Shown piece after piece: positions 807 to 56,100 of a stretch of DNA of 61,940 bases. Both the position numbers and the translations under genes were made by a program. This DNA is from a virus. The notes beneath the pieces were generated by a model that saw only the letters and a program-made list of their open reading frames with translations, ran no database searches and was not told the origin of the DNA. Location of the stretch: positions 1 through 61,940 of IMG/VR virus record IMGVR_UViG_3300027645_000001. One strand, 5' to 3'. Numbering within the stretch: the first letter of the stretch is position 1; each line of letters opens with the position of its first letter.

Positions 807-841
807 CCACACGGTAATCTTCGCTTCTGTTGGAGAGGTTT

Positions 842-18234: not shown

Positions 18235-18407
18235 CGCGACCGATGACGAACAAGCAACGCGATCTGCAAATCGAGCTACTGCGACGCCGAGGCATGTCGC
18301 ACAAGCAAATCGCCGAGCAGCTCGGTGCGACAGCCACGACGGTCGCGAAAGTGCTCTCGCGCCGTGGCGTTGTCCGACCCTACCCGCGCAACCGGAAAGC
18401 AGCGTGA
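18231..18407 (+). CDS. Small HTH (LuxR/sigma-70 region-4-like) protein, 58 aa, hidden under a longer shadow ORF
   Basis: My translation: VTRPMTNKQRDLQIELLRRRGMSHKQIAEQLGATATTVAKVLSRRGVVRPYPRNRKAA. GTGA overlaps at both ends; GGAG upstream. Confidence 0.55.
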   Translation: MTRPMTNKQRDLQIELLRRRGMSHKQIAEQLGATATTVAKVLSRRGVVRPYPRNRKAA

Positions 18408-19327
18408 CGAAGTCGAAGTCCACGAAGCGCTCAACACCGACCAAAGCGGCCGGCAACAAGCTCGTGCGGCCGTCACAGATCAGCCTGCTGACACGAGCGA
18501 TTAACGCGGTCACAATGGCGCACAACGCGATGATGGCGAAGGTTGAGTACCTTGCGACCAGCGTTGCCAGATTGGCCTCGACGGTCGCACGCTTCGACGC
18601 TAGATTGCGGCAGCTTGAACCGCCGCCGCCGCACAGCGCCAATCCGCCACAATCGGACGATGCCGCTGCCGTTCGGGTAGCGGCGCTGACCGCCCAGATC
18701 GTCGGCCAGGATCGCTCGCCGTTGGGTCGCACATTGCCGTCGCAGATCGTCGATGCTGCTGAGAAACTTGCCGTCGAGAATGCGCAGCTCATCGCGAAGG
18801 TGCGGCGCGAGTTGCAAGCTGCTAACGCCGAGCTGGAACGCAGCCGTGATCGGGCGATGTTCGGCACGCCAGCCTCCTACGACGACTACTGGCGTGAAGC
18901 CGATTCGCACGGTCACGTCGTGCTGGTATCGCCTGGGTTAACCGAGGCTTGGAAGTCGTTTGTACGCGGCAATCGCGCGGGCAGTCTCGTCGAGGCCTTT
19001 GGCAGTGCAATCGCCGATCCCGCGGGTTGGCTCAACGATGCGCTCAAGTTGCCGCTGGATACGCCTTGGCCCAATGCGCTGGATCGCTGCCGAGCGCTGG
19101 TGAAAGCCGTCGCCGAGCGTGATGCTTTGACGGCGCAATCAGCGATGTTGGGCCGTCGTGTTGCCGAGCAGGACGCGGAGCTGGAGTTATTTCGCGAGCA
19201 GGTTCACAAGGCGCGTCGGATGCTCGGTGATCCTCGCACGATCGTCAGCGTCGGGACCAGTGATCCGCCGCAGTTGATCCCAGCCGTTCGTTCTGGAAAC
19301 TCCGACCACGCGCAGCCCGATCAGTGA
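18404..19327 (+). CDS. Coiled-coil hypothetical protein, 307 aa, with a C-terminal QLIP motif
   Basis: Track ORF 18203..19327 trimmed to the GTG at 18404 (VTKSKSTKRS...). The C-terminus reads DPPQLIPAVRSG. Confidence 0.55.
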   Translation: MTKSKSTKRSTPTKAAGNKLVRPSQISLLTRAINAVTMAHNAMMAKVEYLATSVARLASTVARFDARLRQLEPPPPHSANPPQSDDAAAVRVAALTAQIVGQDRSPLGRTLPSQIVDAAEKLAVENAQLIAKVRRELQAANAELERSRDRAMFGTPASYDDYWREADSHGHVVLVSPGLTEAWKSFVRGNRAGSLVEAFGSAIADPAGWLNDALKLPLDTPWPNALDRCRALVKAVAERDALTAQSAMLGRRVAEQDAELELFREQVHKARRMLGDPRTIVSVGTSDPPQLIPAVRSGNSDHAQPDQ

Positions 19328-41864: not shown

Positions 41865-41886
41865 GGAAGGTAACGAGGAATTATCT

Positions 41887-42267: not shown

Positions 42268-42377
42268 ACACCGGGAAACGACTGCTGATCTTGCTCGCCC
42301 TTCTGTTGCCGCTGACGTGCCTCGCACAGAGCCCTGGCGTCGGGCTCGACGCGCTGCCTTCGGCCTTGGTCTATTGA
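42264..42377 (+). CDS. Micro-ORF, 37 aa, signal-peptide/lipoprotein-like
   Basis: My translation: MNTGKRLLILLALLLPLTCLAQSPGVGLDALPSALVY. Confidence 0.4.
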   Translation: MNTGKRLLILLALLLPLTCLAQSPGVGLDALPSALVY

Positions 42378-42413
42378 TAGGATAAAAGCGAAGCGCATGA
42401 GGATTTACTGAGG

Positions 42414-43679
42414 GTGGCCGCCGCCGCCCCACAATTGATCCCGCAGGCGAACGCGACGCCGTCGCTTGTCTTTCCGAGCACGACCTCGAGCGGTTTAACG
42501 ACGACGCCCTCCACCGGGCCCACGCCACAGATTGTGCCCACGGTGGGCTCGACCGCGCCTTCCGCCTCGCCCAATACGCCGCTGCCAGGTGCGACGGTGG
42601 CGCCTCCGGGCGGTCCTCCGCCGCCCACCACGCCCTCGAGCCGCGCACCATCCGTCTCGAGCATCATTCCAGGCGCAACCTCGGTGCCCATCAGCGGCAA
42701 TACCACGATCGCGCCGGTGAATCAAAGCGAACTCGTCTCTGGTCAGCTCAACGATATCCTGAAATCAGGCTCGCCCTACACGCAGCTCGCGCGCAGTCAA
42801 GCATTGCAGGCCGCATCCGCTCGCGGCCTTCAGAATTCGAGCATCGCCGCTGGCGCGGGCGAAGCCGCTGCGATCTCGGCCGCGCTGCCTATCGCACAGG
42901 GAAATGCGACCAATGAGCTCACGGTCGAGCAGGCGAATCAGCAAGCGCTCAACACCTCGGCGCAGATCCAGCAGCAGGCCACCGCGACCCAGCAGACGCA
43001 GAAGCAGCAGATTGAGGAGCAAACGCAGTCCACATTGGTCACGCAGGCTGCCGCGCTCACCCAGCAGTTGACCAACACGCTGACCGCTCAGGCGCAGCAG
43101 GGCACGATCAACTTCACCCTGCAGGCCCAAACGGAAGCGGCCAACATCAACCAGATTCTCACGCAGGGCAATGTCAACTCGATGTTGTCGGCGCAGCAAA
43201 GCACGCAGCAGATCCAGCAGATCAACCAGACGAGCCTGGATACGATCAACCAGATTGATTCGCAGGCCAAGGCGAACGCCTCACAGGACGGCCCCGCGTT
43301 GCAGGCCCAATACCTGACTGGCGTGACCAACATCATGAATGCGACGGCGGCCCAGATTCAGGCGATCTACCAGACGACCGGCCTTTCAAGCACCCAGCAG
43401 CAAGCCGCGGTGCTCACTGCGAATCAGCAGATGCAGGAGAACATCAATAATCTTGCAGCCTACTACGCCAGCTCACCGCTGTGGGATACGGGCCAGCAGC
43501 CCACGCCGATCCCGGCGTCCGCGATTCCGAAGCCAGTGGCGCCAGTTGCAACGCTGCCCAGGCCAACGCCCACGCCAACGCGCACGTCCACGCCCGCGCC
43601 CACAGCGCCGACCGCGACCACGCCGACCAGACGATATTCAGGCTATCCGACGACTACGGGCTTTGGGATGCCAGCATGA
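42414..43679 (+). CDS. Gln-rich internal-virion-like protein, 421 aa
   Basis: Track ORF. The GTG start has poor SD spacing, so the start is uncertain. N-terminal QLIP/QIVP/SIIP motifs, then a long Q/T/A-rich helical region. Confidence 0.6.
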   Translation: MAAAAPQLIPQANATPSLVFPSTTSSGLTTTPSTGPTPQIVPTVGSTAPSASPNTPLPGATVAPPGGPPPPTTPSSRAPSVSSIIPGATSVPISGNTTIAPVNQSELVSGQLNDILKSGSPYTQLARSQALQAASARGLQNSSIAAGAGEAAAISAALPIAQGNATNELTVEQANQQALNTSAQIQQQATATQQTQKQQIEEQTQSTLVTQAAALTQQLTNTLTAQAQQGTINFTLQAQTEAANINQILTQGNVNSMLSAQQSTQQIQQINQTSLDTINQIDSQAKANASQDGPALQAQYLTGVTNIMNATAAQIQAIYQTTGLSSTQQQAAVLTANQQMQENINNLAAYYASSPLWDTGQQPTPIPASAIPKPVAPVATLPRPTPTPTRTSTPAPTAPTATTPTRRYSGYPTTTGFGMPA

Positions 43680-44161
43680 TCCGTCACGCACTACTGCAAG
43701 ACGTGCCGGCGATCGAGAAGCTGCTGCTGCGCGCGAAGCGGCGCACTGAGCTTTGCACTGTGAAGGTGAACTTCGAGAAGGGACGCAAAAACATCCGCCG
43801 CTGCATTCAAAGCGCGCTTGGCTTTGCGATGGTGGCCGAGCGCGGGGAGAAGATCACCGGGACACTGCTCGCGATGCAGTGCGAGTATTGGTACTCAAAC
43901 GAGCGCTACGTCACCGATATGGGATTCGTCAGCTACGCGCGCGGGGATGGTCGGCTGCTGCTGCGGCGCTGCCGCTCTTGGGCGGACGCGCATGGTGCGA
44001 AGATGCTGATGGGCACGTTCTCGCTCGATCCAAGGGGCGCGATGCGGCGCGTGTACGAGGGCGAGGGGCTCTATATGGCTGGGCACACGTTCGTGAGTGA
44101 GAAGCCAATCAACGTTCCGAACATAAGGATGGTGCCATGTCACATTTCTTCAACCAGGTAG
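43676..44161 (+). CDS. GNAT-family N-acetyltransferase
   Basis: ATGA overlap. MIRHALLQDVPAIEKLL start and an acetyl-CoA-loop-like YARGDGRLLLRRCRSWADAHGAKML segment. Confidence 0.55.
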   Translation: MIRHALLQDVPAIEKLLLRAKRRTELCTVKVNFEKGRKNIRRCIQSALGFAMVAERGEKITGTLLAMQCEYWYSNERYVTDMGFVSYARGDGRLLLRRCRSWADAHGAKMLMGTFSLDPRGAMRRVYEGEGLYMAGHTFVSEKPINVPNIRMVPCHISSTR

Positions 44162-45078
44162 GAAAAGTTTTCAGTGCAGTGTGGGATTTTATCCGACCAG
44201 TTGTTGAGGTCGTGGCCATCGCGGCTGCGGTTTATTTCACTGCAGGCCTTGCGCTCTCGTACTTTCCGGCCACGGCGGGATTTGCCGCAGCTATGCCGGG
44301 CTTTGCGAGCACCACGGGTGTGGCAGGGGAAGGCGTCTTTAGCTCGCTTGCCAGTTCGATTGGTATGGGCGGCGGCATCCAGGCAGGCGCTGCCGCAGAT
44401 GCGTCCCTAGCCGCTGATGCGGGCTTTGCCACGGCCGCGACGAATGCCAGCGCGGGAATTACCGCCGCTACAGCCTCACCGGCGGCTGACACTGCTGTCG
44501 GTGCGAGCGTTGCGCCCGGTGGCGTTGCAGTGGCTCCGGCGAGTGTCGGTGGTGGCATAGGGACGGCGGCTGCCGCTCCGGCGGCCGTCGACACCGCAGC
44601 CTCCGTTGCCGGCTCGAGTGCATCGGCCGCGGCTGTATCAGGTGCGCTCACCAATAAGCTGCTGCTGGCATCGGTCGGCACGCAGCTGATCTCGGGGCTC
44701 ACCGCCCCTTCGCCGACCGATATCGCCGCGGCCAAGGCCGGCTTCTATGGCTCCTTCTATGGTAAGGATGCGAGCGGCGCCGGCGCACCCACGCCCAATC
44801 TGTCGGTCGGGCCGCAGGCCGAGCTAATATCGCCGCTCGCCTCTGGCGCCCAACCCATTCCTGGCGTCAACGTGCCCAGCGTGCAGAACGCCGCGCCCGC
44901 GCCCGGGCTAGCAGGCTTTCAGGGTGTGCAGCAGGCGCAGTTGATCCCAGCGGTGCCGAGTGGCGCGATGCCCGCGCCTGGCGCTGCGCAGGGTAATCAG
45001 CTCACGGCAGCGGTGCCGTTGGCCAAGCCGCAGCTCATTCCATCAGGGGCGCCTAAGCCGGCGCCTGCGGCCGTATGA
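44137..45078 (+). CDS. Ala/Gly-rich internal-virion-like protein with an N-terminal TM helix, 313 aa
   Basis: AAGGA RBS; TM segment VVEVVAIAAAVYFTAGLALSYF; two QLIP motifs near the C-terminus. Confidence 0.65.
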   Translation: MSHFFNQVGKVFSAVWDFIRPVVEVVAIAAAVYFTAGLALSYFPATAGFAAAMPGFASTTGVAGEGVFSSLASSIGMGGGIQAGAAADASLAADAGFATAATNASAGITAATASPAADTAVGASVAPGGVAVAPASVGGGIGTAAAAPAAVDTAASVAGSSASAAAVSGALTNKLLLASVGTQLISGLTAPSPTDIAAAKAGFYGSFYGKDASGAGAPTPNLSVGPQAELISPLASGAQPIPGVNVPSVQNAAPAPGLAGFQGVQQAQLIPAVPSGAMPAPGAAQGNQLTAAVPLAKPQLIPSGAPKPAPAAV

Positions 45079-46010
45079 TTCCAGTCGCCACCATCCCGCC
45101 GGATCCGGGGCCGCAGACGCCTTCAGCCCCTGGCGTGTCACCGCCCCCGCCTGCGCCCGCCTCACAGCCGCCGCCTGGTTCACCGGGCGCGCAGGCAGGC
45201 CCCGGGCCCCCGCCTCAGAGCCCCGTGGGTCCACCAGGCGCCACGCCCCCATCTCCCGGCGGCGGAGCACCACCTGGTGGCCCCGCGGGTGCTCCGGAGA
45301 CCATGGATCAGGGTGATCCGCGTCCGCGTCTCATTCCCGGTTCAGATGCCACCAGCGGCAACGTGCCGGCGAGCCCGCAGGAGCAGAACGATCTGCGCCA
45401 GACGCTCATCAAGGCCGGCCAGATGATCCACAAGCCTAGCAGCCGCGATGCCGTGCTCAACAGCCTGCATCAGCCGGATATGACCGTGGCACAGGCCGTG
45501 GGGAAAACTGCAGCGCAAATTCTTATGACGGTCGACGGCCAGAAGCAGGCCGTCACGCAAACCGCGCTTTCGCACGACGTGCTCTACCAGGCGGCGCGCT
45601 ACGTGATCCCCGAGCTCATGGATATCGGCATCAGCGCCGGCATCTTCCCGATCAGGCCACCCCCAGGTGGCACGGCGAGCCAAGGCAAGGGCGGCAACGG
45701 CCAGGATCAGGGCCCAGGCGTTGGCAACGATCCGTACAACAAATCGATTCGCATGGCGATGTTGGAAGCCACGAAGGTATATGGCGAGGCACAGCTCAAA
45801 TCCCCAGGCGCGGCGCAGATGACCGAACAGGCGCAGAACGATTGGGCCAATCAGGTGCGCCAGGAGGTGCAGTCTGGCAAGGCCGATCCGCGTTACATGG
45901 CGATGGCAAGACCCGGAGGCGGCGGTGCAGGCCCGCAGGGCGCACCAGCGCCTGGCGGTCCTCCGCAGATCATTCCTAGCGGCCGGGCTGCTCAAGGGGC
46001 GCCTTCATGA
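45075..46010 (+). CDS. Pro/Gly-rich internal-virion-like protein, 311 aa
   Basis: ATGA overlap. RLIPG after the Pro-rich N-region and QIIPSG near the C-terminus. Confidence 0.65.
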   Translation: MIPVATIPPDPGPQTPSAPGVSPPPPAPASQPPPGSPGAQAGPGPPPQSPVGPPGATPPSPGGGAPPGGPAGAPETMDQGDPRPRLIPGSDATSGNVPASPQEQNDLRQTLIKAGQMIHKPSSRDAVLNSLHQPDMTVAQAVGKTAAQILMTVDGQKQAVTQTALSHDVLYQAARYVIPELMDIGISAGIFPIRPPPGGTASQGKGGNGQDQGPGVGNDPYNKSIRMAMLEATKVYGEAQLKSPGAAQMTEQAQNDWANQVRQEVQSGKADPRYMAMARPGGGGAGPQGAPAPGGPPQIIPSGRAAQGAPS

Positions 46011-47104
46011 GGACCAACAGCGGCCTGAACTGGTCAAATATCTCCGCTGGCTTCGCTGGCGCAAGTCAGGGCTTATCGCAGGCCGCCGACATCAAGGCGC
46101 GCGAGCAGCTTGAGGAACTCCGAGACCAGCGCGCAGCGAACCTTGCGCGCATGACCTTCGGCTGGAAGGCGCAGCACGACGTGAACATGCTCGAGCGTAC
46201 GGAGGCCGGCGCCAACATTCGCGCCCAGGCCTCGGAGACCGGCGCAAACATTCGTTCTGCCGCTCAAATCGCCGGCCAGAAGGAGACCACCGCGCGCGAA
46301 TACCAGATGCAGCTCAAAGGCCAGGAAAACTACCTGACCAGAATGAATCAGATGAACGAGTACAACCGCGCGCGCGATGAATCCAAGCAGAGCGCTGAAA
46401 ATGAGCTGAGACAGCAGGGGCTACGCGCCGCGAATCGGCAGGAAATGCAGCGCATGACCCTGCAGTATGAACAGGAGATTCGCAAGATCGACCAGGCCAT
46501 CAGTGTGTCCGCCAAAGAACACGAATTTGAATTGCCCGATCCCAAAGATCCGAGCTATGACGCGGTCGCGGCAAGGCATCCGGAACTCGGCAAATTGCTA
46601 GAGCAGCGCGCCGAACTCGGACAGCAGAAAACCATCGCCCTGTATAACTACACGATGGCGGGCGCCCAGCTTGGGGATAAGGATTTCATGGGGGCAAATC
46701 AGCCGTTGCCCCCGGCAGCGCCTTCAGGCGCAGCGCCCTCGCTGATACCCAGCGGCGGCGGTACTGCTACGCCAAACAATCCGCTCGAGCCTTCCGCCCA
46801 GCTGCCACGCTATCCTGGGATGAATCCAGCCGACAACGTGCCTGCGACTGCCGCACCTCCCCCTAGCGGCCCCACTGCCGGCTCCGCTGCCGGCAGATCG
46901 GCGCCTACCTTCGCGCCACCGCGAGCGCCCATAACGAGCATGGTGGGCCCGCTCATGAGCCCGCCGCAAATCATCCCGGGGCGAGCCTTGCAAAGCCAAG
47001 CCCCGATGCCTGGCGTCAACATGCCAGCAGGGGCCGGTGCGTTTCCCGGTATCGGCAATCCTATGGGCGCGCCGCCCTCGCTGATCCCGCAACAGGGATA
47101 CTAG
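46007..47104 (+). CDS. Coiled-coil internal-virion-like protein, 365 aa
   Basis: ATGA overlap. SLIPSG, QIIPG and a terminal SLIPQQGY. Confidence 0.65.
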   Translation: MRTNSGLNWSNISAGFAGASQGLSQAADIKAREQLEELRDQRAANLARMTFGWKAQHDVNMLERTEAGANIRAQASETGANIRSAAQIAGQKETTAREYQMQLKGQENYLTRMNQMNEYNRARDESKQSAENELRQQGLRAANRQEMQRMTLQYEQEIRKIDQAISVSAKEHEFELPDPKDPSYDAVAARHPELGKLLEQRAELGQQKTIALYNYTMAGAQLGDKDFMGANQPLPPAAPSGAAPSLIPSGGGTATPNNPLEPSAQLPRYPGMNPADNVPATAAPPPSGPTAGSAAGRSAPTFAPPRAPITSMVGPLMSPPQIIPGRALQSQAPMPGVNMPAGAGAFPGIGNPMGAPPSLIPQQGY

Positions 47105-47108
47105 GTCC

Positions 47109-50100
47109 GTGGCCGATTTTCCGGACTCGGCGCCGGATTGGATCAAGCAGCTTCAGACAGCTCCTGGTCCCACCGCTGACACGCTGCAAGTTCAAAGTCC
47201 AGCCAATGGGCTGTGGTACACGCTGCCGCGGATACCGGACGACTTCAAGGCGCCCCCCATGCCGCCGCCACCGCCCCCGCCAGGGCCTGGGCTTTTCGAG
47301 CGCGCATGGGATACCGCCAAGGCGATCCCTGGCGAGGCGATGGCCCAGATCAGCCCCTCTGAGGCCTATCACGAGAACGTCGCAGCCGATGCAGCGCGTT
47401 GGACGCAGGCGCATCCCGACAGCCTGTTAACTGAGGTCGCGCGGCATAGCCTAGGACTGATCCCGGGAGCAGCGCCCCTGGTCAGCTCGATGGTCAACCG
47501 GGATTCTGCGATCTGGCCTGAGTCGCCTGAGCAGCAGGCCGACATCGCCGCACGTGCGGCGGCGCCGGCGCCGGGCTTTCTTGAGGGCCTGAAGAACGCG
47601 GCCACGCTATTTCAGGAGCACCCGGGCGCACTCGTCGGCCAGCTCATTCAGCAGACGGCCGAGAATCCGCAGTACCTGATCGGCGGGGATCTCGGCTTGA
47701 CCGCGGCAGCAGCGCGCATCGCCAAGAGCGCGGGAGCCGCGGACGCTGCGGCCAAGACGGCAGGAGCTCTGGGACGTGTCGCAGGCCAGTCGGGCAGCTT
47801 TGCCGCGCTCACTGCCGGCACCGAAGCGGTCCACGAAGCGGGCGCAGGCGCGCTTGATCCGGAGAAGATCAAGGAAGCTGGCGAGCAGGGCGCGGTCATT
47901 GGTCCTGCGGTCGATAGCATCCTGCGTCTGGCGAGCGGGCGGCCGGTGATGCGTGTCACCCTCGATGAGCTTAAAAAGGGCCTGGATCGCGGCCCGCAGC
48001 CCGCCGCCGGCGAGCCATTGCTCGAAGGGCCACCAGGCAGCACCGGAGGCGGTGGCGGCGCAGCGGGCGCCCCAGCGGCTCCCAGCGCCCCTACCGGCAC
48101 GCTCTCTCAGCTCGCCACGCGAGCGCGCGAAGCAGGAGTCGCCCCGGAGGACATACACCCAATCATGGCCGATCGGTTGCGGCGCAATATCTCGGATGAC
48201 GAGGCACGCACACAGGTTCAGCACCTCATCGATGCGGCGACCGTCGCGCCGGCAAGGACGGCGGCGAAGGCACCAGAGCGCAAGAAGGAGGAGACGCCAA
48301 AAGAGGAAGTGACAGAGCCCGCGACCGCGAGTAAAGTCGCTGAGTCTCCCACGCAGCCCTCGTCCGAGGCGAAGGCCGAAGAACAGACCGCCAGGGCAGA
48401 AGGCCCAGCGGCTGGCGAGCAAGCTGGCGCCCCGGCCCCTGCTGCAGCGGCCGGCGGCGCGGAGCAATCACCAAAACCAAATGAGGCGCAGACGCCTCAG
48501 ACTGGCGACGTATGGCGCGTCGGGTTTGCTGGCGATGAGGGACGCAAGGAGCCCTACGAACTGACGGTCGGCGGTGGTCGGATGCTCGCGCGGCAGGAAG
48601 GCGCCGGTGACGACGTGCCGTTTGTTGATGTGACACCGAGGGCCGGCGAGTCGCTGCAGGATGCGCTGGTCAGGAAACTAGCGCCCCCGCATGGCGCAGA
48701 ACAGCAGATCGAGGCGGTGCAGCGACCTGCGGCTCCGACGCCCGACGAGCACGGGATCGTCAAGACGAAAGTTGCCGGCCAGCCGGTTGAGATCGCCCAT
48801 GCGCCGACTCCCCTGCAAGAACAGGCTGGAAACTTCAAGCAGGGACACATAACGATACCGTTAGATGGCGGCATCCCGGTCACTGTGCAGAAGGCCGCAG
48901 GCATGCAGCGCAGCGGCGTCGATCAGGACGGCAAGACCTGGACGTCCACCCTGAAGCACGACTATGGGTACGCGAAAAGGACGATTGGCGCCGACAAGGA
49001 ACCGATCGACGTTTTCGTAGGGCCAAACCCAGAGTCGAAGCGTGCCTACGTTGTCGACCAGAACAGCGTCAAAACCGGCGATTTTGACGAGCACAAATTA
49101 ATGCTCGGATTCAATTCGCGCGAAGCTGCCAGCGATGCCTACCTGTCTAACTATCCCAAGGGCTGGACCGGCCGCGGCCATGTCACGCCCATGTCAATCG
49201 AACAGGCAAAGGACTGGCTCGATAATGGCGATACGAAGGCGCCGGCGCACGGCCAACAGTTGCTGCCGGCGGCTCCCGCGGCTATAGTCGCACCATCACA
49301 ACCTGAGAAACCAGCGATAGGCCCACCGGAGACAGCTCCGGCAGCGGGCGCGGTAACTGAAACACCCCCGCAGCAAACAGCGGAAGCTGCGGGGGCAATC
49401 CCAGAAGAACCATCCACGCTTCGCGGCCAACTCGCGGCCAAACCCGCCGAGGCACCGGCGCCTGAAGCCGTCGCGCATCCGCCAGCCCAGTTGCCGCATG
49501 TCGAGGGTGGCCTGTCTGAGCCAGAGCGCAAGGTTGTCGCCGATCTGGGCGCAAAGCTGTCCGTCGGTGCTCTGACCGCCAAGGATGCCCGCGGCGTCTA
49601 CGAGCAACATGTGGGCGAGAAAGCCATCGGCGCCCACGCCAAGCGAGCCGAGGAGCTCACCGAGCTCGCCGTGGTGCATTCAGCGCGCGACGTCGTCACC
49701 AGTGCCCCGGTCCCGCATGAGGCGTTCGATAAGCTCGTCGATCTGTACGGCCGTCAGCCCACTTTCGGTACCCGCACGTCCACGAGCGTCGAACAGCAGG
49801 CGTATTCGACGCCAGCTCCGCTCGCTTATGTCGCAAGCCATCTCGCAGGCATCACTCCATCGACGACGGTACTCGAGCCGACAGCGGGCAATGGGATGCT
49901 GCTCATGGCTGCCAGCCCAAAGAATGCGACCGTCAATGAGCTGAATCCATCGCGGGCGGCGGCGCTTCGCGAACAGGGCTTTAACGTCACGACCAAGGAT
50001 GCGGTGCGTGCGGACTTTGGGCCGCCAGTCCAGGCGGTGATCGCGAACCCTCCGTTTGGCGTGGTTCGAGACGAGTCGGGTGCGTCGCGCAACTTTAGCG

Positions 50101-53100
50101 TTGAGATGCCAGCTGGCAAAGCTTTCGAGACGCACGAGATCGACCACGCTATTGCCCTCCACGCTCTGGACTCGATGATGGACGACGGTCGCGCCGTGCT
50201 CATCATCGGCGGCATCAATAAGCTCGCGCGCACCGAGGAAGCCCGATCGGATGCCTACAACGGCGCCGCGAAGCGCAAATTCTTCTACGCCCTGCATCAG
50301 AACTATAACGTCGCCGATCACTTTACAGTGGCGGGCGAGCTCTACGCCAAGCAAGGGGCGGCTTGGCCCGTAGACGTTGTCGTGATCGCAGGGCGCGGCA
50401 AGAGTGCCAAGGTGCTGCCAGCCGTGGAAGTGCCGCGGGTGTATAATTCGTGGGCGGATTTAAAGCCGCTGTTGGATCAAACCTATGAGCAGCCTCATCG
50501 CATGGAGCCCAGTGTCGGAGAGCAACGGCCCTCTGATATTCAGCGTGCAGCTCCACCCGCAGCAGAAGCTGGACACACTGCTGTACCTGGGCCTGTTATC
50601 CGACCGAGTGCAGGGGATGCTGGACCGGAGCCAGGACCAGAGCGAGGCGTCGAACCAGTTGCAGGACATCCTGGAGTCGGGCGGGGTGTGGCCAGGCCGG
50701 ATGAAACTGCGGGAGGGCTCGGAGGCGAACGACCTGGTGGCGTCGAACCCGAGCCTGCTGCGCCGCCTGCGCCAGTTGGGCCTGCCGCAGAACCTGCAGG
50801 ACTCGAACCTGGTGGAACAGCTCTCGGCAAAGCAGCAGATATTGGCGGACAAGGCGGAGCCGCGCAGCCGCCTGGAGAGCTGGGCGAGCGCCGTGTCCCA
50901 AATGCGTTAATCGAAGGGCCGCAGCAACCCTACGAGCCGGCCAGTAGAGAAGGCGCGATCGGCACGCTGGTGCCGACCAACATGCGCACGGCGATCGGCA
51001 CAGCGCTCGATAAACTGCAGGATAAAGTCGGGCCCGTAGATCGTTACGTCGCCCAGGAGCTTGGCTATTCCCCGGAGGAGATCGGCAGGTACTTCTCAGC
51101 CGAGCAGCTCGATGCGCTGGGCCTTGCGCTCTCGCAGATGAAATCCGGCAAGGGCTTCATCATCGGGGATCAAACAGGCATCGGTAAGGGGCGCGTGGTG
51201 GCCGGCGTGATTCGCTGGGCGCTCAAAAACGGTCAGACGCCGATCTTCGTCACCGAGAAGCCGAATCTCTACGCCGACATGTACCGGGATCTGACCGATA
51301 TTGGGGTGCAGGATATTCGTCCCGTGATGACCAATGGAGCGGAGAAGGTGCCGCTCGATGATGCCGGTAACGTCACGCTGCGAACGCCAAGCTCCGAGCG
51401 CCACAACGCTCTGATGAGCGAGATGGCCGCCAAGGCTGACCTTGGCGAGCACAACATGATCTTCACCACTTATAGCCAGATGCAGACGCTCAAAGGCGCG
51501 ATGACGCCGCGCATGCAGTTCCTGGCCGCTTTCGCGCCCAACGGCGTGACAATCTTCGACGAGTCACACAACGCCGGCGGCACGGACGTGGGGGGACGTG
51601 CGAAGAAGGCCGACCAGGAGCAAGGCAAAACCGGCCGCGCAGGTTTTGCGCGTCACCTGGCCAAGCTAGCCAAGGCCGTGTTCTACAGCTCGGCGACCTA
51701 CGCCAAGCGGCCGAGCGTGATGGACCTGTATTTCAAGACCGACATGGCGATGGCGGTCGACAACGATGTGAAGAAGCTGCCCGCGGCGATCACTGCCGGC
51801 GGCGTGCCCTTGCAGCAAGTCGTGGCTTCCATGCTCTCGGATGCCGGTCAATACATCCGGCGCGAGCGCTCCTTCGCAGGCGTTGAATACAACACGCCCG
51901 TCGTGCCGGTAGATCGTAAGGCGGCCGAAGCAATTTCGGCGGTAATGCTCGCCGTCAAACAGTTCGACGATATCAAGCAGATCGCGCTCAAGGGGATCAA
52001 GAAGGAACTCAAGCGCGAAGCGGGCGCGCTTGCCGCCGATCAAGCGCTAAGTCCTTCGTCTACCAACTTCACCTCGGTCATGCACAACCTGATCGATCAG
52101 ATGCTGCTGGCGCTTAAAGCCGACGCGGCGGCGGATCTTGCCATCGAAGCCATCAAGCGCGGAGAACACCCAGTCGTCACCGTGGCGAACACGATGGGTT
52201 CGTTCCTGGAGAGCTACGCCGAGGAGGCGGGGCTCAAGAACGGGGATGCGATGGCGCTCTCCTTCGGCAATCTGATGGCGAGATATCTTGAGCGCTCGCG
52301 CGACGTCACGACCAAGGCCAACGACGGCACTGTGACGCGGCGCCAAATCCTGGATGAGGAACTCGGGCGCGAAGGCGTGGCCAAGTACGAGGCGGTCAAG
52401 GAGCTCATCAAGCGCACACCGGGCCTTAAGGGCGTGCCGGTCAGCCCGATAGACTGGTTGCACTACCGCCTCAATAAGGCCGGCTACAAGACCTCGGAGA
52501 TCACCGGCCGCACGCACACGCTGCGCTATAGCGACACCGATAAGCACCCGACCTATCAGCTGCGCGGCTCCAAGGAGACCTCGATCGCCGGGCGCCGGCG
52601 CGCGATCATGGGCTTCAACAGCGGCGCGCTCGATGCGCTGATCATCAACCAGGCAGGAGCCACCGGCCTATCGCTGCACGCTTCTGAGAAGTTCAAGGAC
52701 AAGCGCAGACGGCGCATGGTGATCGCCCAGGCCGAGCGCAATATCGACACGCACATGCAAATGCTCGGGCGTGTGCATCGCACCGGCCAAGTGGTGGCGC
52801 CGGCGTACGACCAGCTCGTCGCCGATATCCCTGCCGAAAAGCGCCCCGCCGCAGTGCTCGCAAAGAAAATGGCGAGCCTGAACGCCAACACGACGGGGGC
52901 GCGCTCGAGTCAATTCTCTGCCAAGGACACGTTGGACTTCGACAACCAGTACGGCGATGAAGCGGCGGCCTCAATGATGGAGGACATGCCGGAGATCCAC
53001 GAGATGCTCGGCGAGCCGCTCAAGGACACCGACACGGGATTGGAGCGCGATGGCGCGGCGCGCAAGGTGTCGGGGCGCCTACCGATGCTCGAGGTGACGC

Positions 53101-56100
53101 AGCAGGAGGCGTTCTATGAGCTGTTCGCGCAGAACTTTCAGGAGTTGCTCGATCGCGCCAATGCGCTGGGCGAGAACGCTCTTGAGGCGAAAACGCTCGC
53201 GCTCGATGCAAAGCCTGTGTCAAAGACTGAGCTCTTTCCGGCCAAGGTAGCCACCGACAGTCCCTTCGGCGCCGGCGCCTACGCGAACACGATGGACGTC
53301 AAGCGGCTGGGTAAGCCCTACACCAGCGAGCAGGTGCGTGAGCGGCTAGCGGAAAACGCCGGTTTCGGCAAGGAGGAGGCAACGCGCCACGACATCCATG
53401 CGGCTCTGCGCGAGCAGTGGCGCGAGCGCGTCGAGAAGAACATGGATGACTTTCAGACCTATCTGACGGCCGAACGGGCGAAGATGGCCGATTCGGACAT
53501 GAAGGAGGAAGCGCAGGAGGGCCGTGTTGCGATGCTCACGCAGCAGGCAAGCCAGTGGCACGAGATGGCCAAGGAGCTCGTGCCGGGGAAAATGTATAGC
53601 CTACGCACGCCCGAGGGCACGACGTACTACGCGGTGCTACAGAAGATCGAGCGCAAGAAAGGCGTGAGGATGCCCACAGCGCGTGGCTCATGGCTTGCGC
53701 ACTTTGATGTGGCCGACGGCATGCGTGAGATCACCTTCCCGTTTTCCAAGCTCTCGACCGATCTGGATACCGTCGGCGGCCTGGGCAAGGTGCAGGTCGA
53801 GCGAGCCTCACATCACGACATCACGCGCACAGACATCATGCAGCTGTTCGACGAAGGTCAGACCGTCAGCCGCGAGAAGCGCGTGCTCGTGACGGGCAAC
53901 CTGCTCGCCGGCTTCAGCAAGGTCGGCCGCGGCCAGATTGCCAACTTCACCGATCACGAGGGCAATATCCAGCAGGGCGTGCTCATGCCCCGCAGCTTTG
54001 ACCTTGCAAAGTTCGCTGAAAGCCAGCCCGTGCAGCTCACCAGCGAGCAGGCTGGGCGCTTCCTCGAGGACGTCGGCCAGGGGATCGTGCGCAGCTCGGA
54101 CAACGTCGTGACGATCAGAAACTACGGGCCGAATCTGCTGCTGCAGGTGCCACGCTCGAAAGCGGAAGGCGGTAAGTATTTCCTCGACCAGGGGCTACGC
54201 GACATCGTTGGCGACTTCACCAGCGGCTCGAGCTCGATGCGCGTCACCTTTGATCGGGACCAGCTGCCGGCGGTACTCAGCGAACTATCGAGCCGGTTCG
54301 ATCAGAAGTTCTACACCGACACGTTCAAGGAGGAGGCGCAGAAGGCCGGGGGCTCGGTGCTGGGTCAGGCGAAGAAGCAGGCCACCTCTTATGCGCGTCC
54401 AGCGCCGACGCTGCGCCGCGCGATCGAGGCACGCCGCGCCACGAAGCTCGCCCCGAACGTGGCAGATTACTTGAAGCGCGTTGAGACGGCGCTGCGCGGA
54501 CATGCCCAGGTGCAGGTGCATGCGAACCCGAAGGAATTTGGAGAAGCCATTGATCAGGACGTACCACCGGATGTCGCCGGCGCCTACACCTCGGACGACG
54601 GCACCTTGCACTTCGTCGCCTCTAATCTGCCGGACGTGGCCGCAGCTCAAGCGATTTTCCGTCACGAGGGCTTTGGCCACCTCGCGATGGAGAAGTCACC
54701 GGACTTCGAAAAAGCGCTGGCGATGGTCGGACAACTGCGAAAAATGGGTGGAGCGAAGATCAAGCGACTGTATGACGACGTGGAGCGTCGATATCCCGGA
54801 GCGGACAATACCACCCTGTCAAAGGAGGTAATCGCCACGATGGCCGAGCGTGGCGTCAAGAACGCCATCGTCGATCGAGCTATCACCGGGGCGCTCTCGC
54901 TGCTGCGCAAGATGGGTATTGAGACGCCGCCGGCCGAGGCTGAACTGCGGCAGATGATCGTACAGGCCGCTCGCGGGCTACCGGTCGAAGCCAGGGCGCT
55001 CTCAGGACTCGATCGAGTGGAAGCCTACGCGGCCGAGGCCCACGTACAGGCAGGGCGCGAGGGCGCCGCCATGGACGCGCTGGGCCGCGTGCTGCCCGAA
55101 TCGGATGCGATCGACGCTCTGAGCGCCGCCAAGCGCGCCGGCAATACCCGGGCGATCGAGATCCTCAAGGATCTGCAGGACGATGCTTCGGTCGGGGATA
55201 ACGACAATCCTCCGCTGATCGAGGACGCCTACCATCCGGTGGAGGCTTCCATTCCACGCGAAGTGCTCTTTGCGCGTCACGCGCCGATGGACGCGGAGAC
55301 GAAAGCTGCGCGCGACAAGGTCATGGACCCGGACGGCCGCGATGACATGACGCTGCGCGACCGCCAACGTCTGGGGCTCGCAGCCCTTCGCAAGGTCGAT
55401 GGCACCGCGATCAAGCAATACTGGATCGATGACCTGGCGAGCATCGCGAAGTGGGAGCGCGAGATCAACGGCGGCAAGCTCAAGGCCGGCGAGGAGAGCC
55501 CGCTCAAGGCCGCGCGCAGCGTGCGAAATCTGGCGAGCCAGATGGCAGCGGTGCTCGAGGTAGGCATCCCGGAGCACAAGGACGGGGTGTTTCAGGTGGT
55601 CCCCGGTCGCCTGGGGCTCAAAAAGGTTTTCGAGCCGTTGAGCACCAATCCCGACGGCAGCCTGATCAGGCATTTCGAGCTCTATGCAGCCGCGCGACGT
55701 GCTTTGCGCCTCATCAACGAGCGCAATCGCGACGGCACGCTGCGGGAAAAGAACTTCACGCAGACCGAGATCGATGCGGGTCTGGCGCTCGCCAAGAAAT
55801 ATCCCGAGCTCGAGCGCGTATTCCATGATCTGCAGGAGGTTTGGACGCAGCTACTCGATCTAGGCGAGTCGGCCGGCACGATCGATCCGGAAGCCAGAAG
55901 GATCTACGAGAGGTTCGATTATGTCCCCTTCTATCGCGCGGAGGAGGAGCTCGCCGGCGAGCGTCCGAGCGGCGGCCGATCACGCGGCGGACTAGCGAAC
56001 CAGCGTGAGATGAGCGGCAGGCTTACGGGCAAGGCGGCCCCGCTGCGCAACATCCTCGAGAACGTGATGATGAACATTGCGAACCAGATGGATGCGGCGC

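What the first reader, a model, noticed from the sequence alone, without database searches (positions are those of the whole stretch)
42414..47475. Recurrent short peptide motif [QS][LI]IP(S/G/A/Q) at the termini of consecutive internal-virion-like proteins
Strict [QSR][LI]IP copies, read in frame:
- QLIP 42432..42443 (residues 7-10 of the 42414 ORF) and SIIPG 42660..42674 in the same ORF
- QLIP 44938..44949 and QLIP 45031..45042 (12 aa from the C-terminus of the 44137 ORF)
- RLIPG 45327..45341 and QIIP 45966..45977 (11 aa from the end of the 45075 ORF)
- SLIP 46739..46750, QIIP 46967..46978 and SLIP 47078..47089 (4 aa from the end of the 46007 ORF)
Two degenerate copies are QIVP 42528..42539 and GLIP at 47454..47465 near the N-terminus of the giant protein. 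The only copy I found outside this block is QLIP 19271..19282, near the C-terminus of the 18404..19327 coiled-coil protein.
The context is usually P-P-Q-(L/I)-I-P-S-G. Three adjacent proteins ending in the same tail looks like a shared docking or processing signal. Possibilities are a capsid/portal-targeting peptide (analogous to encapsulin cargo-loading peptides or the T4 capsid-targeting sequence) or a protease site. I know of no described phage motif like this.
Basis: seen in the sequence. Interest (0 to 1): 0.75.

Follow-up and report, generated by a model that had tools for sequence, protein, structure and literature searches.

The report
Shared peptide tag on ejection proteins
Four neighbouring, mostly disordered proteins of a short-tailed phage all carry the same tiny peptide (Pro-x-Leu-Ile-Pro) at their ends; related phages carry a different tiny peptide at the same places, which suggests an undescribed address tag read by one shared, still unidentified partner.

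Summary
[LI]IP occurs 9 times in the 1,410 residues of the four proteins encoded at 42414-47104, against about 0.8 expected. It occurs only twice in the other roughly 18,000 residues of the window. Codons differ between copies, so selection acts on the peptide. The copies lie in predicted disorder, at the N-end of A, the C-ends of B, C and D, and just before C's helical core. The same motif, with consensus P-x-L-I-P, recurs at the same positions in seven syntenic metagenomic phages. It forms islands of conservation in otherwise variable tails.

Relatives with the same gene order lack LIP. They carry [DE]-L-F, L-M or [DE]-F-I at equivalent positions in the same proteins. Such a coordinated switch suggests one common, co-evolving receptor.

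The window is a roughly 62-kb podophage distantly related to Xuquatrovirus (PTXU04). The block sits between tail-fibre genes and a 3,620-aa polyvalent protein.

The best reading is a terminal docking tag that loads or holds ejection proteins in the head. The receptor and the function are inferred, not shown. No published precedent was found. I rate it a new variant of a known kind (capsid-targeting or cargo-loading peptides), with interest about 0.65.

The parts
42414..43679 (+). Protein A (421 aa). It has a disordered P/S/T-rich N-terminus with three motif copies, followed by a Q-rich helical domain. It is a putative ejection or internal virion protein.
   Evidence: ORF. No Pfam or PHROG hit. 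Syntenic homologues occur in L002, L004, L006, L007, L009 and L014, with motif copies at residues about 5-10 and just before the conserved domain.
42432..42443 (+). Motif copy QLIP (A, aa 7-10), at the extreme N-terminus.
   Evidence: An equivalent N-terminal copy is present in L007, L009 and L014. It is replaced by LF at aa 8-10 in L010, L012 and L016.
42528..42539 (+). Degenerate copy QIVP (A, aa 39-42).
   Evidence: The context P-x-[LI]-[VM]-P-T-V-G-S-T is conserved in L004 and L007.
42660..42671 (+). Motif copy SIIP (A, aa 83-86), just N-terminal of A's conserved domain.
   Evidence: A [LIVT]-I-P-[GN] copy sits at the same position in L002, L004, L006 and L007.
43676..44161 (+). GNAT-type acetyltransferase (161 aa) embedded in the block. 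Its ATG overlaps A's stop codon (ATGA). It carries no motif copy.
   Evidence: phrog_1249 acetyltransferase, E = 2.5e-10. Start position. A gene of the same size and place in all nine related loci that reach this position; only L009's has a (weak) Pfam Acetyltransf_1 call, the others are unannotated and their N-termini resemble the window's by eye.
44137..45078 (+). Protein B (313 aa). It has a long N-terminal hydrophobic helix, a Gly/Ala-rich middle, a conserved LTNKLLLASVG...FYGSFYG segment and a disordered Pro-rich tail with two motif copies.
   Evidence: AF2 gives helix 3-40 and a coil tail at 215-313 with pLDDT about 47-63. The family has 353 members at E <= 1e-3.
44938..44949 (+). Motif copy QLIP (B, aa 268-271, position -45 from the C-terminus).
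   Evidence: It aligns with copies in six relatives. LF or FI copies sit at -36 to -39 in L010, L012 and L011.
45031..45042 (+). Motif copy QLIP (B, aa 299-302, position -14 from the C-terminus).
   Evidence: The L-I-P columns are the most conserved of the B-tail alignment. LF or FI copies sit at -12 to -15 in other clades.
45075..46010 (+). Protein C (311 aa). It has a Pro-rich disordered N-terminus, a helical core at about aa 100-278 and a disordered tail.
   Evidence: 14 homologues. AF2 gives a helical core with pLDDT 81-91 for residues 101-180. Both motif sites have pLDDT below 50. No fold or sequence match in the PDB.
45327..45338 (+). Motif copy RLIP (C, aa 85-88), part of the near-invariant RPRLIPG[ST]D.
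   Evidence: It is replaced by DLF, ELF or NLM N-terminal of the same core in L010, L012, L016 and L015.
45966..45977 (+). Motif copy QIIP (C, aa 298-301, C-terminal tail).
   Evidence: Most C homologues have P-[AQ]-[LIM]-[IV]-[PD] in the tail.
46007..47104 (+). Protein D (365 aa). It has an N-terminal coiled coil and a disordered Pro-rich C-terminal third with three motif copies, and ends in GY.
   Evidence: Only weak coiled-coil-type PHROG hits. Homologues in all related loci.
46739..46750 (+). Motif copy SLIP (D, aa 245-248).
46967..46978 (+). Motif copy QIIP (D, aa 321-324), inside the conserved element (M/V)GPL..P-Q-[LI]-I-P.
   Evidence: It is aligned and conserved in seven phages.
47078..47089 (+). 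Motif copy SLIP (D, aa 358-361, four residues from the end).
   Evidence: Equivalent copies sit at -5 to -8 in L002, L004, L007 and L014. LF, LM or FA copies sit at -4 to -9 in L010, L012, L015 and L011.
47109..57971 (+). Giant polyvalent protein (3,620 aa), the presumed co-packaged and injected cargo immediately downstream. Its GLIP (47454-47465) is probably a chance match.
   Evidence: Pfam hits to InPase, AAA_34, Helicase_C_4, ResIII and LPD38. An NPPF methyltransferase motif can be read in the sequence. GLIP is not conserved in homologues.
19271..19282 (+). The only clear copy outside the block: PPQLIP, 14 residues from the C-terminus of an orphan coiled-coil protein (18203/18404-19327).
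   Evidence: The protein has no homologue other than itself among 5.8 billion sequences, so conservation cannot be tested.

Best explanation
P-x-[LI]-I-P is a short linear docking motif. I call it a 'PhiPhi box': two adjacent bulky hydrophobic residues inside a disordered, Pro-rich, hydrophilic terminus. It is displayed one to three times on each of four consecutive proteins (A, B, C, D), which are most likely the ejection or internal virion proteins of a podophage. All copies are read by one common receptor site that co-evolves with them. The receptor is most likely phage-encoded and part of the head interior or assembly machinery (scaffold, portal or the inner capsid surface). Several weak copies per protein would give avidity. 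That would recruit these proteins into the procapsid and hold them there until ejection. An accessory protein could be loaded simply by acquiring the tag, as the orphan 18203-19327 protein may have done.

Shown: the motif exists, is far beyond chance, is selected at the peptide level, lies in predicted disorder, is conserved in position, and switches flavour in concert across the proteins.

Inferred: that A-D are virion-internal, that a single receptor exists, what that receptor is, and that the function is head loading.
For: 1. Enrichment and specificity. There are 9 copies against 0.15-0.8 expected in A-D. Nine of the 11 [LI]IP in a 19,416-aa ORF set are in A-D.
2. Replication with the pattern fixed beforehand, in [LI]IP observed versus expected: L002 10 vs 0.37, L007 7 vs 0.58, L009 9 vs 0.57, L004 4 vs 0.48, L006 3 vs 0.52. 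For [LIV]IP, L014 gives 11 vs 0.77.
3. Short-linear-motif signature. Codons differ between copies. The motif columns are islands of conservation in otherwise unalignable tails. AF2 puts the sites in coil with pLDDT below 50 in C and about 47-63 in B.
4. Terminal, position-conserved display. A carries a copy at residue about 5-10. B carries two copies at about -35 to -45 and -4 to -15. C carries one just before its helical core. D carries two or three in its last 55 residues.
5. Concerted flavour switch.
- L010 and L012 have no LIP. They have LF 10-12 times against 2.5-3.3 expected (0 of 1000 shuffles), at the same positions.
- L011 uses [DE]-F-I or Q-F-A.
- Flavours predicted from the B tail alone reappeared at those sites in proteins fetched afterwards. 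LM appeared in C (aa 6) and D (-62, -4) of L015. LF appeared in A (aa 8) and C (aa 4) of L016.
6. Family-wide signal. Of 148 full-length B homologues, 113 have at least two PhiPhi pairs in the last 60 residues, with 313 pairs observed against 210 +/- 11 in shuffles.
7. Context.
- The block lies in the late, structural part of the genome. The portal is SU10-type, a major capsid protein is present, and the giant polyvalent protein is directly downstream.
- In the distant relative PTXU04, genes gp20 and gp22-gp25, which occupy the same place before and including the polyvalent protein, are needed for fitness (PMC11879866).
8. Precedent for the logic. Terminal capsid-targeting peptides exist in T4 and in P1 DarB, where 30 N-terminal residues are sufficient (PMC9024508).
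Against: - No receptor was identified, and no complex prediction could be run.
- No proteomic evidence shows that A-D are in the virion. They have no hit in Pfam or among PDB sequences; only D has two weak PHROG hits (E about 0.002), and only C's model was compared with PDB folds.
- The giant protein must also be packaged, yet it lacks a conserved LIP copy.
- The Xuquatrovirus relatives share a capsid protein at 52% identity. Of these, only Bas95 was examined, and no LIP and no obvious shared motif was seen in its block.
- The LF, LM and FI flavours were recognised after looking at the sequences. They rest on 3, 1 and 1 genomes.
- The count-only out-of-sample tests are modest (p = 0.065 and p = 0.019).
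- A host-encoded receptor, or a receptor among A-D themselves, would give the same sequence patterns.
Confidence: 0.45

Rival explanations
1. The tags glue the ejection proteins to each other. The receptor would be a folded part of A, B, C, D or the giant protein, for example C's helical core. The tags would tether the set into one complex, either as a bolus in the head or as the trans-envelope conduit after ejection. They would not address the proteins to capsid, scaffold or portal.
For: - All motif bearers and the candidate receptors are encoded in one translationally coupled block, with ATGA overlaps at A/GNAT, B/C and C/D. Co-evolution and a concerted flavour switch would come easily in such a block.
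- Each protein combines a folded or helical part with the tagged tails.
- Podophage ejection proteins are known to oligomerise into a channel (PMC13434306).
Against: - AF2 models of C and B show no docking of their own motifs in cis. The motif residues stay at low pLDDT.
- The orphan 18203-19327 protein outside the block also carries the tag.
- The sequence data do not separate this reading from the best explanation.
Confidence: 0.2
2. The tags bind a host envelope or periplasmic factor after ejection, as colicins use Tol or TonB boxes in disordered translocation domains. Alternatively they bind a host chaperone or prolyl isomerase that refolds the ejected proteins. Flavour would then track the host.
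For: - Several short epitopes in intrinsically disordered termini of proteins that must cross the envelope resemble colicin translocation domains (my own knowledge; not tested here).
- The flavour switch could equally follow a change of host.
Against: - The motif matches none of the bacterial boxes I could recall (TonB box, TolB box, clamp-binding QL[SD]LF). This comparison is from memory only.
- All loci have 63-68% G+C (the window 61%), so there is no sign of different host groups for different flavours.
- The tag on a cytoplasmically made orphan protein is hard to fit to a periplasmic role.
- Four very different flavours would be surprising for a conserved host protein.
Confidence: 0.15
3. 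The motifs are cleavage sites for a maturation protease (phage prohead protease or a host protease) that trims the termini of internal proteins, as T4 gp21 cuts after [LI]-x-E.
For: - The motifs are terminal, repeated and shared by several head-associated proteins, like T4 and giant-phage processing sites (PMC5694885 and PMC10052503, listed).
- A co-evolving protease specificity could also explain the flavour switches.
Against: - No protease domain was found in the structural ORFs tested against Pfam and PHROGs. The portal-to-capsid interval holds only a 128-aa ORF and a 414-aa scaffold-like ORF.
- [LI]IP is absent from the portal, scaffold-like and capsid reading frames.
- Cutting at the N-proximal copy in B or D would remove the other copies, which makes their conservation odd.
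- Pro directly after the hydrophobic pair is unfavourable for many endopeptidases (general knowledge).
Confidence: 0.07
4. The motifs are recognition elements for the modifying enzyme encoded with them: the conserved GNAT acetyltransferase inside the block or, in relatives, the nearby prolyl-hydroxylase-like 2OG-Fe(II) oxygenase. The enzyme would then modify the tails.
For: - A gene of GNAT size sits between A and B in every clade, whatever the flavour.
- A PF13640 oxygenase lies just upstream of the block in L010, L011, L012, L014 and L016.
Against: - No acetylatable residue is constant across the flavours (P-x-L-I-P, D-L-F, L-M, E-F-I).
- The window has no 2OG oxygenase hit.
- The GNAT match is weak and only to PHROGs, with no Pfam hit.
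Confidence: 0.06
5. There is no function. The pattern is a by-product of Pro/Gln/Leu/Ile-rich low-complexity sequence or of recent internal duplication.
For: The proteins are rich in Pro, Ala, Gly and Gln, and the motif definition was made after looking at the sequence.
Against: - Global and local shuffles never reach the observed count (0 of 3000).
- The pattern, fixed in advance, is enriched in independent genomes.
- Codons differ between copies.
- Positions are conserved while the flanks are not.
Confidence: 0.02

Closest known systems
T4 capsid targeting sequence (CTS) of the internal proteins IPI, IPII, IPIII and Alt
   Same: A short peptide shared by several different proteins that are packed into the head and injected. 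It is modular and sufficient to load foreign proteins (PMC9024508; reviews listed). From memory, the T4 leader (MKTYQEFIAE) also contains an F-I pair like the 'EFI' flavour of L011. That is a lead, not a test.
   Different: - The T4 CTS is a single N-terminal leader of about 10 residues, and the prohead protease removes it.
- Here the tag is mostly C-terminal and present in one to three copies per protein.
- Here it sits in long disordered Pro-rich tails.
- No protease was detected in the window.
- There is no sequence similarity to the LIP flavour.
P1 DarB capsid-targeting signal and the Dar system (giant methyltransferase-helicase plus helper proteins loaded stepwise into the head)
   Same: A giant polyvalent anti-defence-type protein is packaged together with several smaller head-internal proteins. 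A terminal signal of fewer than 30 residues is sufficient for loading (PMC9024508). The window's giant protein has helicase domains and an NPPF methyltransferase motif.
   Different: Here a clear consensus is shared by four proteins.
- P1 is a myovirus with a prohead protease.
- Homology of A-D to Hdf, DarA, DdrA, DdrB or Ulx was not tested directly. No Pfam or PHROG family links them.
Encapsulin cargo-loading peptides
   Same: A short hydrophobic motif at the end of a flexible Pro/Ala/Gly-rich linker, on otherwise unrelated cargo proteins. It docks on the inner face of an HK97-fold shell, and the motif varies between lineages (my own knowledge).
   Different: - Encapsulins have no portal, scaffold or DNA.
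- Family 1 cargo usually has one C-terminal copy with a different consensus (about ...LxVGSLK).
- Binding to the capsid interior is not shown here.
Scaffold-mediated recruitment in P22 and herpesviruses (scaffold C-terminal coat-binding helix; short scaffold motif binding portal tryptophans)
   Same: Minor head components, namely the portal and the ejection proteins, are incorporated through short interaction elements during procapsid assembly (PMC12005531 and PMC9320234, listed).
   Different: In those systems the known short elements are on the scaffold, not on the ejection proteins. No shared motif on P22 gp7, gp16 or gp20 is described in the papers I found.
Terminal secretion signals of bacterial secretion systems (for example the T7SS YxxxD/E signal or T4SS C-terminal signals)
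   Same: Short motifs in disordered termini mark unrelated proteins for passage through one narrow channel. Ejection through the tail is formally similar (my own knowledge).
   Different: This is an analogy only. Nothing here shows that the tag is read at the time of ejection.

Membership tests
Short linear motif (SLiM) in the general ELM sense | 3-10 residues with only a few fixed positions | tested here: met
   The core is P-x-[LI]-I-P. Across 42 instances, Pro at -2 occurs 33 times, L or I at position 0 occurs 42 times, and I then P occur 42 times.
Short linear motif (SLiM) in the general ELM sense | Located in intrinsically disordered regions | tested here: met
   In the AF2 models, C sites 85-89 and 298-302 have pLDDT below 50. 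B's tail at 215-313 is coil with pLDDT about 47-63. A and D were judged from composition only.
Short linear motif (SLiM) in the general ELM sense | An island of conservation in poorly conserved flanks, with evolutionary plasticity | tested here: met
   See the tail alignments and the C family alignment. Flavours change between clades.
T4-type capsid targeting sequence | Shared by several different head-internal, injected proteins | tested here: inconclusive
   The tag is shared by four adjacent proteins. That they are head-internal is inferred from synteny and protein character only.
T4-type capsid targeting sequence | A single N-terminal leader of about 10 residues | tested here: not met
   Only A carries the tag at the extreme N-terminus. 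B, C and D carry it in C-terminal tails, in multiple copies.
T4-type capsid targeting sequence | Removed by a prohead protease at an [LI]-x-E site | tested here: not met
   No protease family was detected in the structural ORFs scanned, and there is no [LI]xE context at the motifs. Cleavage itself cannot be tested here.
T4-type capsid targeting sequence | Sufficient to load a heterologous protein | not testable with these tools
   This needs a reporter-fusion experiment.
Encapsulin cargo-loading peptide | A terminal hydrophobic motif after a flexible linker on unrelated cargo proteins | tested here: met
Encapsulin cargo-loading peptide | The shell is an encapsulin (HK97 fold, without portal, scaffold or genome) | tested here: not met
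   The window encodes a portal (PF23899), a terminase-like protein, tail genes and a scaffold-like protein, so it is a tailed phage.
Encapsulin cargo-loading peptide | The peptide binds a pocket on the inner shell surface | not testable with these tools
   No multimer prediction was available.
Prohead-protease processing site | A protease gene in the head module | tested here: not met
   Pfam and PHROG scans of the ORFs between terminase and tail, and of the block itself, found none. Remote homologues could have been missed.
Prohead-protease processing site | The same site also occurs in the capsid, scaffold or portal proteins | tested here: not met
   There is no in-frame [LI]IP in 28927-31227, 31614-32858 or 32897-33892.
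P1 Dar-like head-loaded anti-restriction system | A giant methyltransferase-helicase polyvalent protein | tested here: met
   Pfam hits to AAA_34, Helicase_C_4, ResIII, InPase and LPD38. An NPPF motif can be read in the translation.
P1 Dar-like head-loaded anti-restriction system | Helper proteins homologous to Hdf, DarA, DdrA, DdrB or Ulx | not tested
   No direct comparison was made. A-D have no Pfam hit and no meaningful PHROG hit.

The most novel reading that the evidence does not exclude
This podophage lineage may use a modular, evolvable 'address code'. A two-residue hydrophobic box (LIP, LF, LM or FI, depending on the clade) on disordered termini would be read by a single receptor in the procapsid or portal. 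It would be necessary and sufficient to load any protein into the head for injection. That would explain how all the ejection proteins, and newly acquired cargo such as the orphan 18203-19327 protein, are recruited. Receptor and tags would co-evolve like a lock and its keys, so clades are mutually incompatible. This would be the first shared, sequence-defined packaging signal for podovirus ejection proteins, and it could be used to make phages deliver chosen proteins.
Probability: 0.3. Interest if true: 0.8.

Novelty: new variant of a known kind. Interest (0 to 1): 0.65.

Why it matters
How short-tailed phages get the right number of ejection proteins, and giant injected enzymes, into the procapsid is poorly understood. 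The P22, T7 and N4 papers I read describe where these proteins end up, not how they are addressed.

A sequence-defined tag shared by every ejection protein, with natural flavour variants as built-in specificity controls, makes the question testable. The tests are mutating or swapping the tag, fusing it to a reporter, and fishing for the receptor.

If the tag proves sufficient for loading, it would let podophages deliver chosen proteins into Gram-negative cells. T4 and P1 have shown that this kind of engineering is possible for myophages.

It also gives annotators a handle on a large, unannotated protein family. The B family has 353 members at E <= 1e-3, and none of the members seen here had a precomputed Pfam domain.

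Tried and rejected
- Composition artefact. Rejected by global and 40-residue local shuffles and by replication in other genomes.
- DNA-level repeat or Dam (GATC) site. Rejected because codons differ and only 3 of the 9 strict copies contain GATC.
- Close phage relatives. Megablast of the block and tblastn of C against 50,697 phage records found nothing. Only the capsid protein linked the window to Vibrio crassostreae podophages and Xuquatrovirus, at 52% identity.
- The Xuquatrovirus block. Bas95 has a syntenic low-complexity block but no LIP, and I saw no shared motif by eye. PTXU04's annotation names none of these genes.
- More loci. The IMG/VR scan gave a single locus and the JGI metagenome scan gave none.
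- Known folds or families for A-D. There were no Pfam hits, no meaningful PHROG or PADLOC hits, and no PDB sequence hits apart from a low-complexity match at E = 0.01. Foldseek against the PDB gave nothing below E = 1.
- Docking in cis. AF2 of C and B did not place their own motifs on their folded parts.
- Conservation of the outside copy. The 18203-19327 protein is an orphan, so this could not be tested.
- Protease. None was found.
- Giant-protein copy. GLIP at 47454 is not conserved and I dropped it as chance.
- Known bacterial motifs (clamp-binding QL[SD]LF, TonB and TolB boxes, LPXTG, OMP beta-signal). I considered these from memory and rejected them because the pattern does not fit. No tool test was made.
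- RNA genes and regulatory signals. Rfam, tRNA and promoter/terminator scans of the window or the block found nothing relevant.
- Literature. No description of a shared motif on ejection proteins was found.

Full report
WHAT THE WINDOW IS

The 61,940-bp window looks like a near-complete genome of a short-tailed phage.
- It encodes a portal of the SU10 type (PF23899), a major capsid protein, a terminase-like protein and tail or fibre-like genes.
- It encodes a 3,620-aa polyvalent protein with InPase, SNF2/Sno-type helicase and LPD38 domains. An NPPF methyltransferase motif can be read in the translation.
- Protein C of the window recurs identically on four public metagenomic contigs, the longest 61,982 bp.
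- Megablast finds no relative among 50,697 phage records.
- The capsid protein is 52% identical to those of Vibrio crassostreae podophages and of the E. coli Xuquatrovirus group: PTXU04, Pondi and Bas95 (taxonomy from 10.1101/2024.09.12.612763).

The finding concerns four consecutive + strand genes, which I call A, B, C and D.
- A is 42414-43679, B is 44137-45078, C is 45075-46010 and D is 46007-47104.
- They lie between fibre-like genes and the giant protein.
- A small GNAT-type acetyltransferase (43676-44161, phrog_1249) sits between A and B.
- The genes overlap by ATGA-type junctions, so they are probably translated as one unit.

Every listed copy is present in frame at the stated coordinates.

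The motif is far more frequent than chance.
- [QSR][LI]IP occurs 9 times in A-D. Composition-preserving shuffles give 0.15 expected, and shuffles within 40-residue blocks give 0.12. None of 3,000 shuffles reached 9.
- In a crude set of 73 non-overlapping ORFs (19,416 aa), [LI]IP occurs 11 times. Nine are in the 1,410 residues of A-D. One is in the C-tail of the 18203-19327 protein and one is in the giant protein.
- The copies use different codons, so the selection is on the peptide and not on a DNA repeat.

Some details need correcting.
- The giant protein's GLIP fits the chance expectation and is not conserved in relatives.
- YVIPE in C belongs to the conserved helical core.
- C also begins with M-I-P-V. 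That start is conserved in relatives, where gene callers had truncated the gene.
- A further possible copy, QRIIP, lies in the doubtful ORF 28101-28409.

CONSERVATION IN RELATIVES

C has 13 homologues besides itself. B has 29, and a profile of them finds 353 proteins at E <= 1e-3 among 1.84 billion representatives.

Contigs carrying these homologues keep the same gene order: A, a GNAT-sized gene, B, C, D, then a giant protein of 2,400-4,700 aa.

With the pattern fixed in advance as [LI]IP, the A-D sets of five other phages are enriched.
- L002: 10 observed against 0.37 expected.
- L007: 7 against 0.58.
- L009: 9 against 0.57.
- L004: 4 against 0.48 (1 of 2000 shuffles).
- L006: 3 against 0.52 (28 of 2000 shuffles).
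For [LIV]IP, L014 gives 11 against 0.77.

Across 42 instances the consensus is as follows.
- Position -2 is Pro in 33 instances.
- Position -1 is polar: Q 15, R 7, S 6, T 4, K 3.
- Position 0 is L in 36 and I in 6, followed by I and then P.
- The next residue is G, T, S or P.

The positions are conserved.
- A has a copy at residue about 5-10 and another just before its folded domain.
- B has two copies, at about -35 to -45 and -4 to -15 from the C-terminus.
- C has the near-invariant RPRLIPG[ST]D before its helical core, and usually a tail copy.
- D has two or three copies in the last 55 residues. One is 4-8 residues from the end and is often followed by GY.

In MAFFT alignments of the B and D tails, the motif columns are the only well-conserved ones.

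AlphaFold2 places the motif sites in coil.
- In C, sites 85-89 and 298-302 have pLDDT below 50, next to a helical core whose residues 101-180 score 81-91.
- In B, the tail at 215-313 has pLDDT about 47-63.

Together these are the standard hallmarks of a short linear motif.

THE MOST INFORMATIVE RESULT: A CONCERTED CHANGE OF FLAVOUR

More distant B homologues lack LIP, and many end in ...LF...GVRYV. I fetched their contigs.
- L010 and L012 have no [LIV]IP in A-D. They have LF 10 and 12 times against 2.5 and 3.3 expected (0 of 1000 shuffles), mostly as [DENQSR]-L-F.
- The LF copies sit where LIP sits in the window. In A they are at residue 8 or 10. In B they are at -36/-37 and -12. In C they are just before the helical core. 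In D they are at about -42 to -53, -20 to -23 and -7 to -8.
- The LIP phages show no LF enrichment.
- L011 uses a third flavour, [DE]-F-I or Q-F-A, again in A (N-terminus), B (-39, -15), C (N-terminus) and D (-20, -9).

I then made two out-of-sample checks, choosing loci by the flavour of the B tail alone.
- L015 has L-M twice in its B tail. It turned out to carry NLMD at residue 6 of C, and ELMS (-62) and SLMTSG-stop (-4) in D.
- L016 has L-F in its B tail. It carries DDLFPK at residue 8 of A and MSDLFEN at residue 4 of C.
- Count-only tests are modest: 4 against 1.58 (p = 0.065) and 5 against 1.64 (p = 0.019). The positions, however, are the predicted ones.

The pattern also holds across the B family.
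- Of 148 full-length B homologues, 113 have at least two adjacent bulky hydrophobic pairs in the last 60 residues.
- There are 313 such pairs against 210 +/- 11 in shuffles.
- The commonest pairs are LF 62, LI 59, LL 34, FL 26 and FI 24.

So the LIP motif is one flavour of a more general 'PhiPhi box'. Four unrelated proteins changing the same short peptide together, at the same places, is what one expects if all copies are ligands of one receptor that co-evolves with them.

Caveat: the non-LIP flavours were recognised after looking at the sequences. They rest on three (LF), one (LM) and one (FI) genomes.

WHAT IT MOST LIKELY DOES

A-D have the character of podophage ejection or internal virion proteins.
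- They are essential-module genes next to the tail genes.
- They are low-complexity and helical or coiled-coil.
- One of them, B, has a long hydrophobic N-terminal helix.
- They lie immediately upstream of a giant protein of the kind thought to be injected (PMC5512222, listed).
- In PTXU04, the genes in the same place (gp20, gp22-24) and the polyvalent gp25 are required for fitness and are toxic in E. coli (PMC11879866; map).

This assignment is an inference. There are no proteomic data. A-D have no hit in Pfam or among PDB sequences, only D has two weak coiled-coil-type PHROG hits (E about 0.002), and C's model matches no PDB fold.

Given that assignment, I think the most likely role is a terminal docking tag that recruits and holds these proteins in the head. 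Several weak copies would give avidity. The receptor would be a phage assembly component: scaffold, portal or the inner capsid surface.

The logic has precedents.
- The T4 capsid-targeting sequence is shared by several internal proteins.
- The first 30 residues of P1 DarB are sufficient for loading. That paper notes that no consensus could be found among the P1 Dar proteins (PMC9024508).
- Encapsulin cargo-loading peptides follow the same logic (my own knowledge).

One observation fits a portable tag. The only clear copy outside the block is PPQLIP, 14 residues from the end of an orphan coiled-coil protein.

Confidence:
- That this is a functional shared-receptor motif: high, about 0.8.
- That the function is head loading through a phage-encoded receptor: about 0.45.

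RIVALS
1. The receptor is one of A-D or the giant protein, and the tags tether them into one complex or into the trans-envelope conduit (0.2). The sequence data cannot separate this from the best explanation. AF2 showed no docking in cis.
2. The receptor is a host periplasmic or envelope factor, as with colicin Tol and TonB boxes (0.15). All loci have a similar G+C of 61-68%, and the tag on a cytoplasmic orphan protein fits poorly.
3. The motifs are protease sites (0.07). No protease domain was found, and the motif is absent from the capsid, scaffold-like and portal proteins.
4. The motifs are recognition elements for the co-encoded GNAT or, in relatives, a prolyl-hydroxylase-like oxygenase (0.06). 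No modifiable residue is constant across flavours.
5. The pattern is a compositional artefact (0.02). The shuffles and the replication exclude it.

COMPARISON WITH KNOWN SYSTEMS, AND NOVELTY

The motif works like a capsid-targeting or cargo-loading peptide, but it is not a member of any described family.
- It is not an N-terminal cleaved leader as in T4.
- The shell is a portal-bearing phage head, not an encapsulin.
- It matches no known bacterial motif that I could recall.

Searches of 8 million papers with several term sets found no shared motif described on podovirus ejection proteins.

I class it as a new variant of a known kind. It matters because it offers a concrete, mutable handle on how ejection proteins are addressed. 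The natural flavour variants serve as specificity controls. If the tag is sufficient for loading, it is also a route to protein delivery by podophages.

LIMITS
- No multimer modelling was possible.
- The receptor is unidentified.
- Virion location is inferred.
- The non-LIP clades are thinly sampled.
- All relatives are uncultured metagenomic contigs.

Noticed in passing
window 43676-44161 (+); a same-sized gene at the same place in L002, L004, L006, L007, L009-L014 and L016: A GNAT-type acetyltransferase gene sits inside the ejection-protein block, between A and B. Its ATG overlaps A's stop codon (ATGA). A gene of the same size and place occurs in all motif-flavour clades but not in Bas95. 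Only the window gene (phrog_1249, E = 2.5e-10; no Pfam hit) and L009 (weak Pfam hit) are annotated as acetyltransferases. Its role is unknown: a virion enzyme, a modifier of the ejection proteins or an assembly helper.
   Followed up: partly
window 47109-47260 (giant protein, aa 1-50), and the N-termini of the giant proteins in L002-L014: The giant polyvalent protein has its own conserved N-terminal element. It reads [DNS]-[WF]-[ILVYF]-x-x-L-P, then PGPTxDTxY[IV]QSPAxGLWY (window: DWIKQL...PGPTADTLQVQSPANGLWY). In the LF clade the protein starts with ANLFDD or NEFDDGLP. By analogy with P1 DarB, whose first 30 residues suffice for capsid targeting, this could be its packaging signal.
   Followed up: partly
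L010 790-1422, L011 1648-2265, L012 1533-2162, L014 4332-4961, L016 1423-2049: A 2OG-Fe(II) oxygenase of the PF13640 family, which resembles prolyl 4-hydroxylases, lies a few genes upstream of the block in five relatives. None was detected in the ORFs of the window that I scanned. It might hydroxylate the Pro-rich tails in those phages.
   Followed up: no
L004 9782-10000, L006 about 9740-10000, L007 9686-10000, L014 about 7795-7863: Gene callers truncated protein C in several relatives. The in-frame upstream sequence encodes the conserved Pro-rich N-terminus starting (M/V)-I-P-V-(Q/A)..P(D/N)P..PPG(V/I)PP. C therefore abuts B, as it does in the window.
   Followed up: yes
window 47093-47101, and the D homologues of L002, L007, L014 and Bas95 (L001 21133-22116): Protein D often ends in Gly-Tyr-stop: window QQGY, L002 PGY, L007 NAGY, L014 PGY and Bas95 KYGY. 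Many distant B homologues end in G-V-R-Y-V. These extreme C-terminal aromatic endings may be a second, separate signal.
   Followed up: no
window 18203-19327 (+): This coiled-coil protein has no homologue other than itself in 5.8 billion sequences, yet it ends with ...DPPQLIPAVRSGNSDHAQPDQ. It is a candidate accessory cargo that acquired the tag, but nothing else is known about it.
   Followed up: partly
window 830-2332 (+) and 26398-28083 (+): Two proteins carry glycosyl hydrolase family 26 (mannanase-like) domains. The second has a signal-peptide-like N-terminus and long poly-Ser linkers. They may be capsule or EPS depolymerases, which would be unusual partners for a podophage tail.
   Followed up: no
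window 19876-20505 (+): The translation contains the EGCLSFP and HEMDHMDG motifs typical of peptide deformylase. I read this from the sequence only and did not run it against a family library.
   Followed up: no
L007 8241-8714 and L016 6852-7302: HNH-type homing endonuclease genes are inserted inside the block, between the GNAT-position gene and B in L007 and between B and C in L016. The block tolerates insertions without losing gene order.
   Followed up: no
window 41755-42413: There is a gap of about 660 nt, without a convincing + strand ORF, between the 162-aa ORF (41266-41754) and A. G+C is locally lower, at about 0.555 in the 40-42 kb bin. Only a 220-aa ORF on the - strand lies there. The Rfam, tRNA and promoter/terminator scans found nothing notable.
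   Followed up: partly
window 32600-32640 (scaffold-like protein 31614-32858, near aa 330): The scaffold-like protein contains ...GREFIPMALSMPAPQP..., an F-I-P next to a Pro-rich stretch. It ends in a basic, probably helical tail (SDIVKQMRVARGQSTA). I do not know whether the F-I-P is related to the PhiPhi boxes.
   Followed up: no
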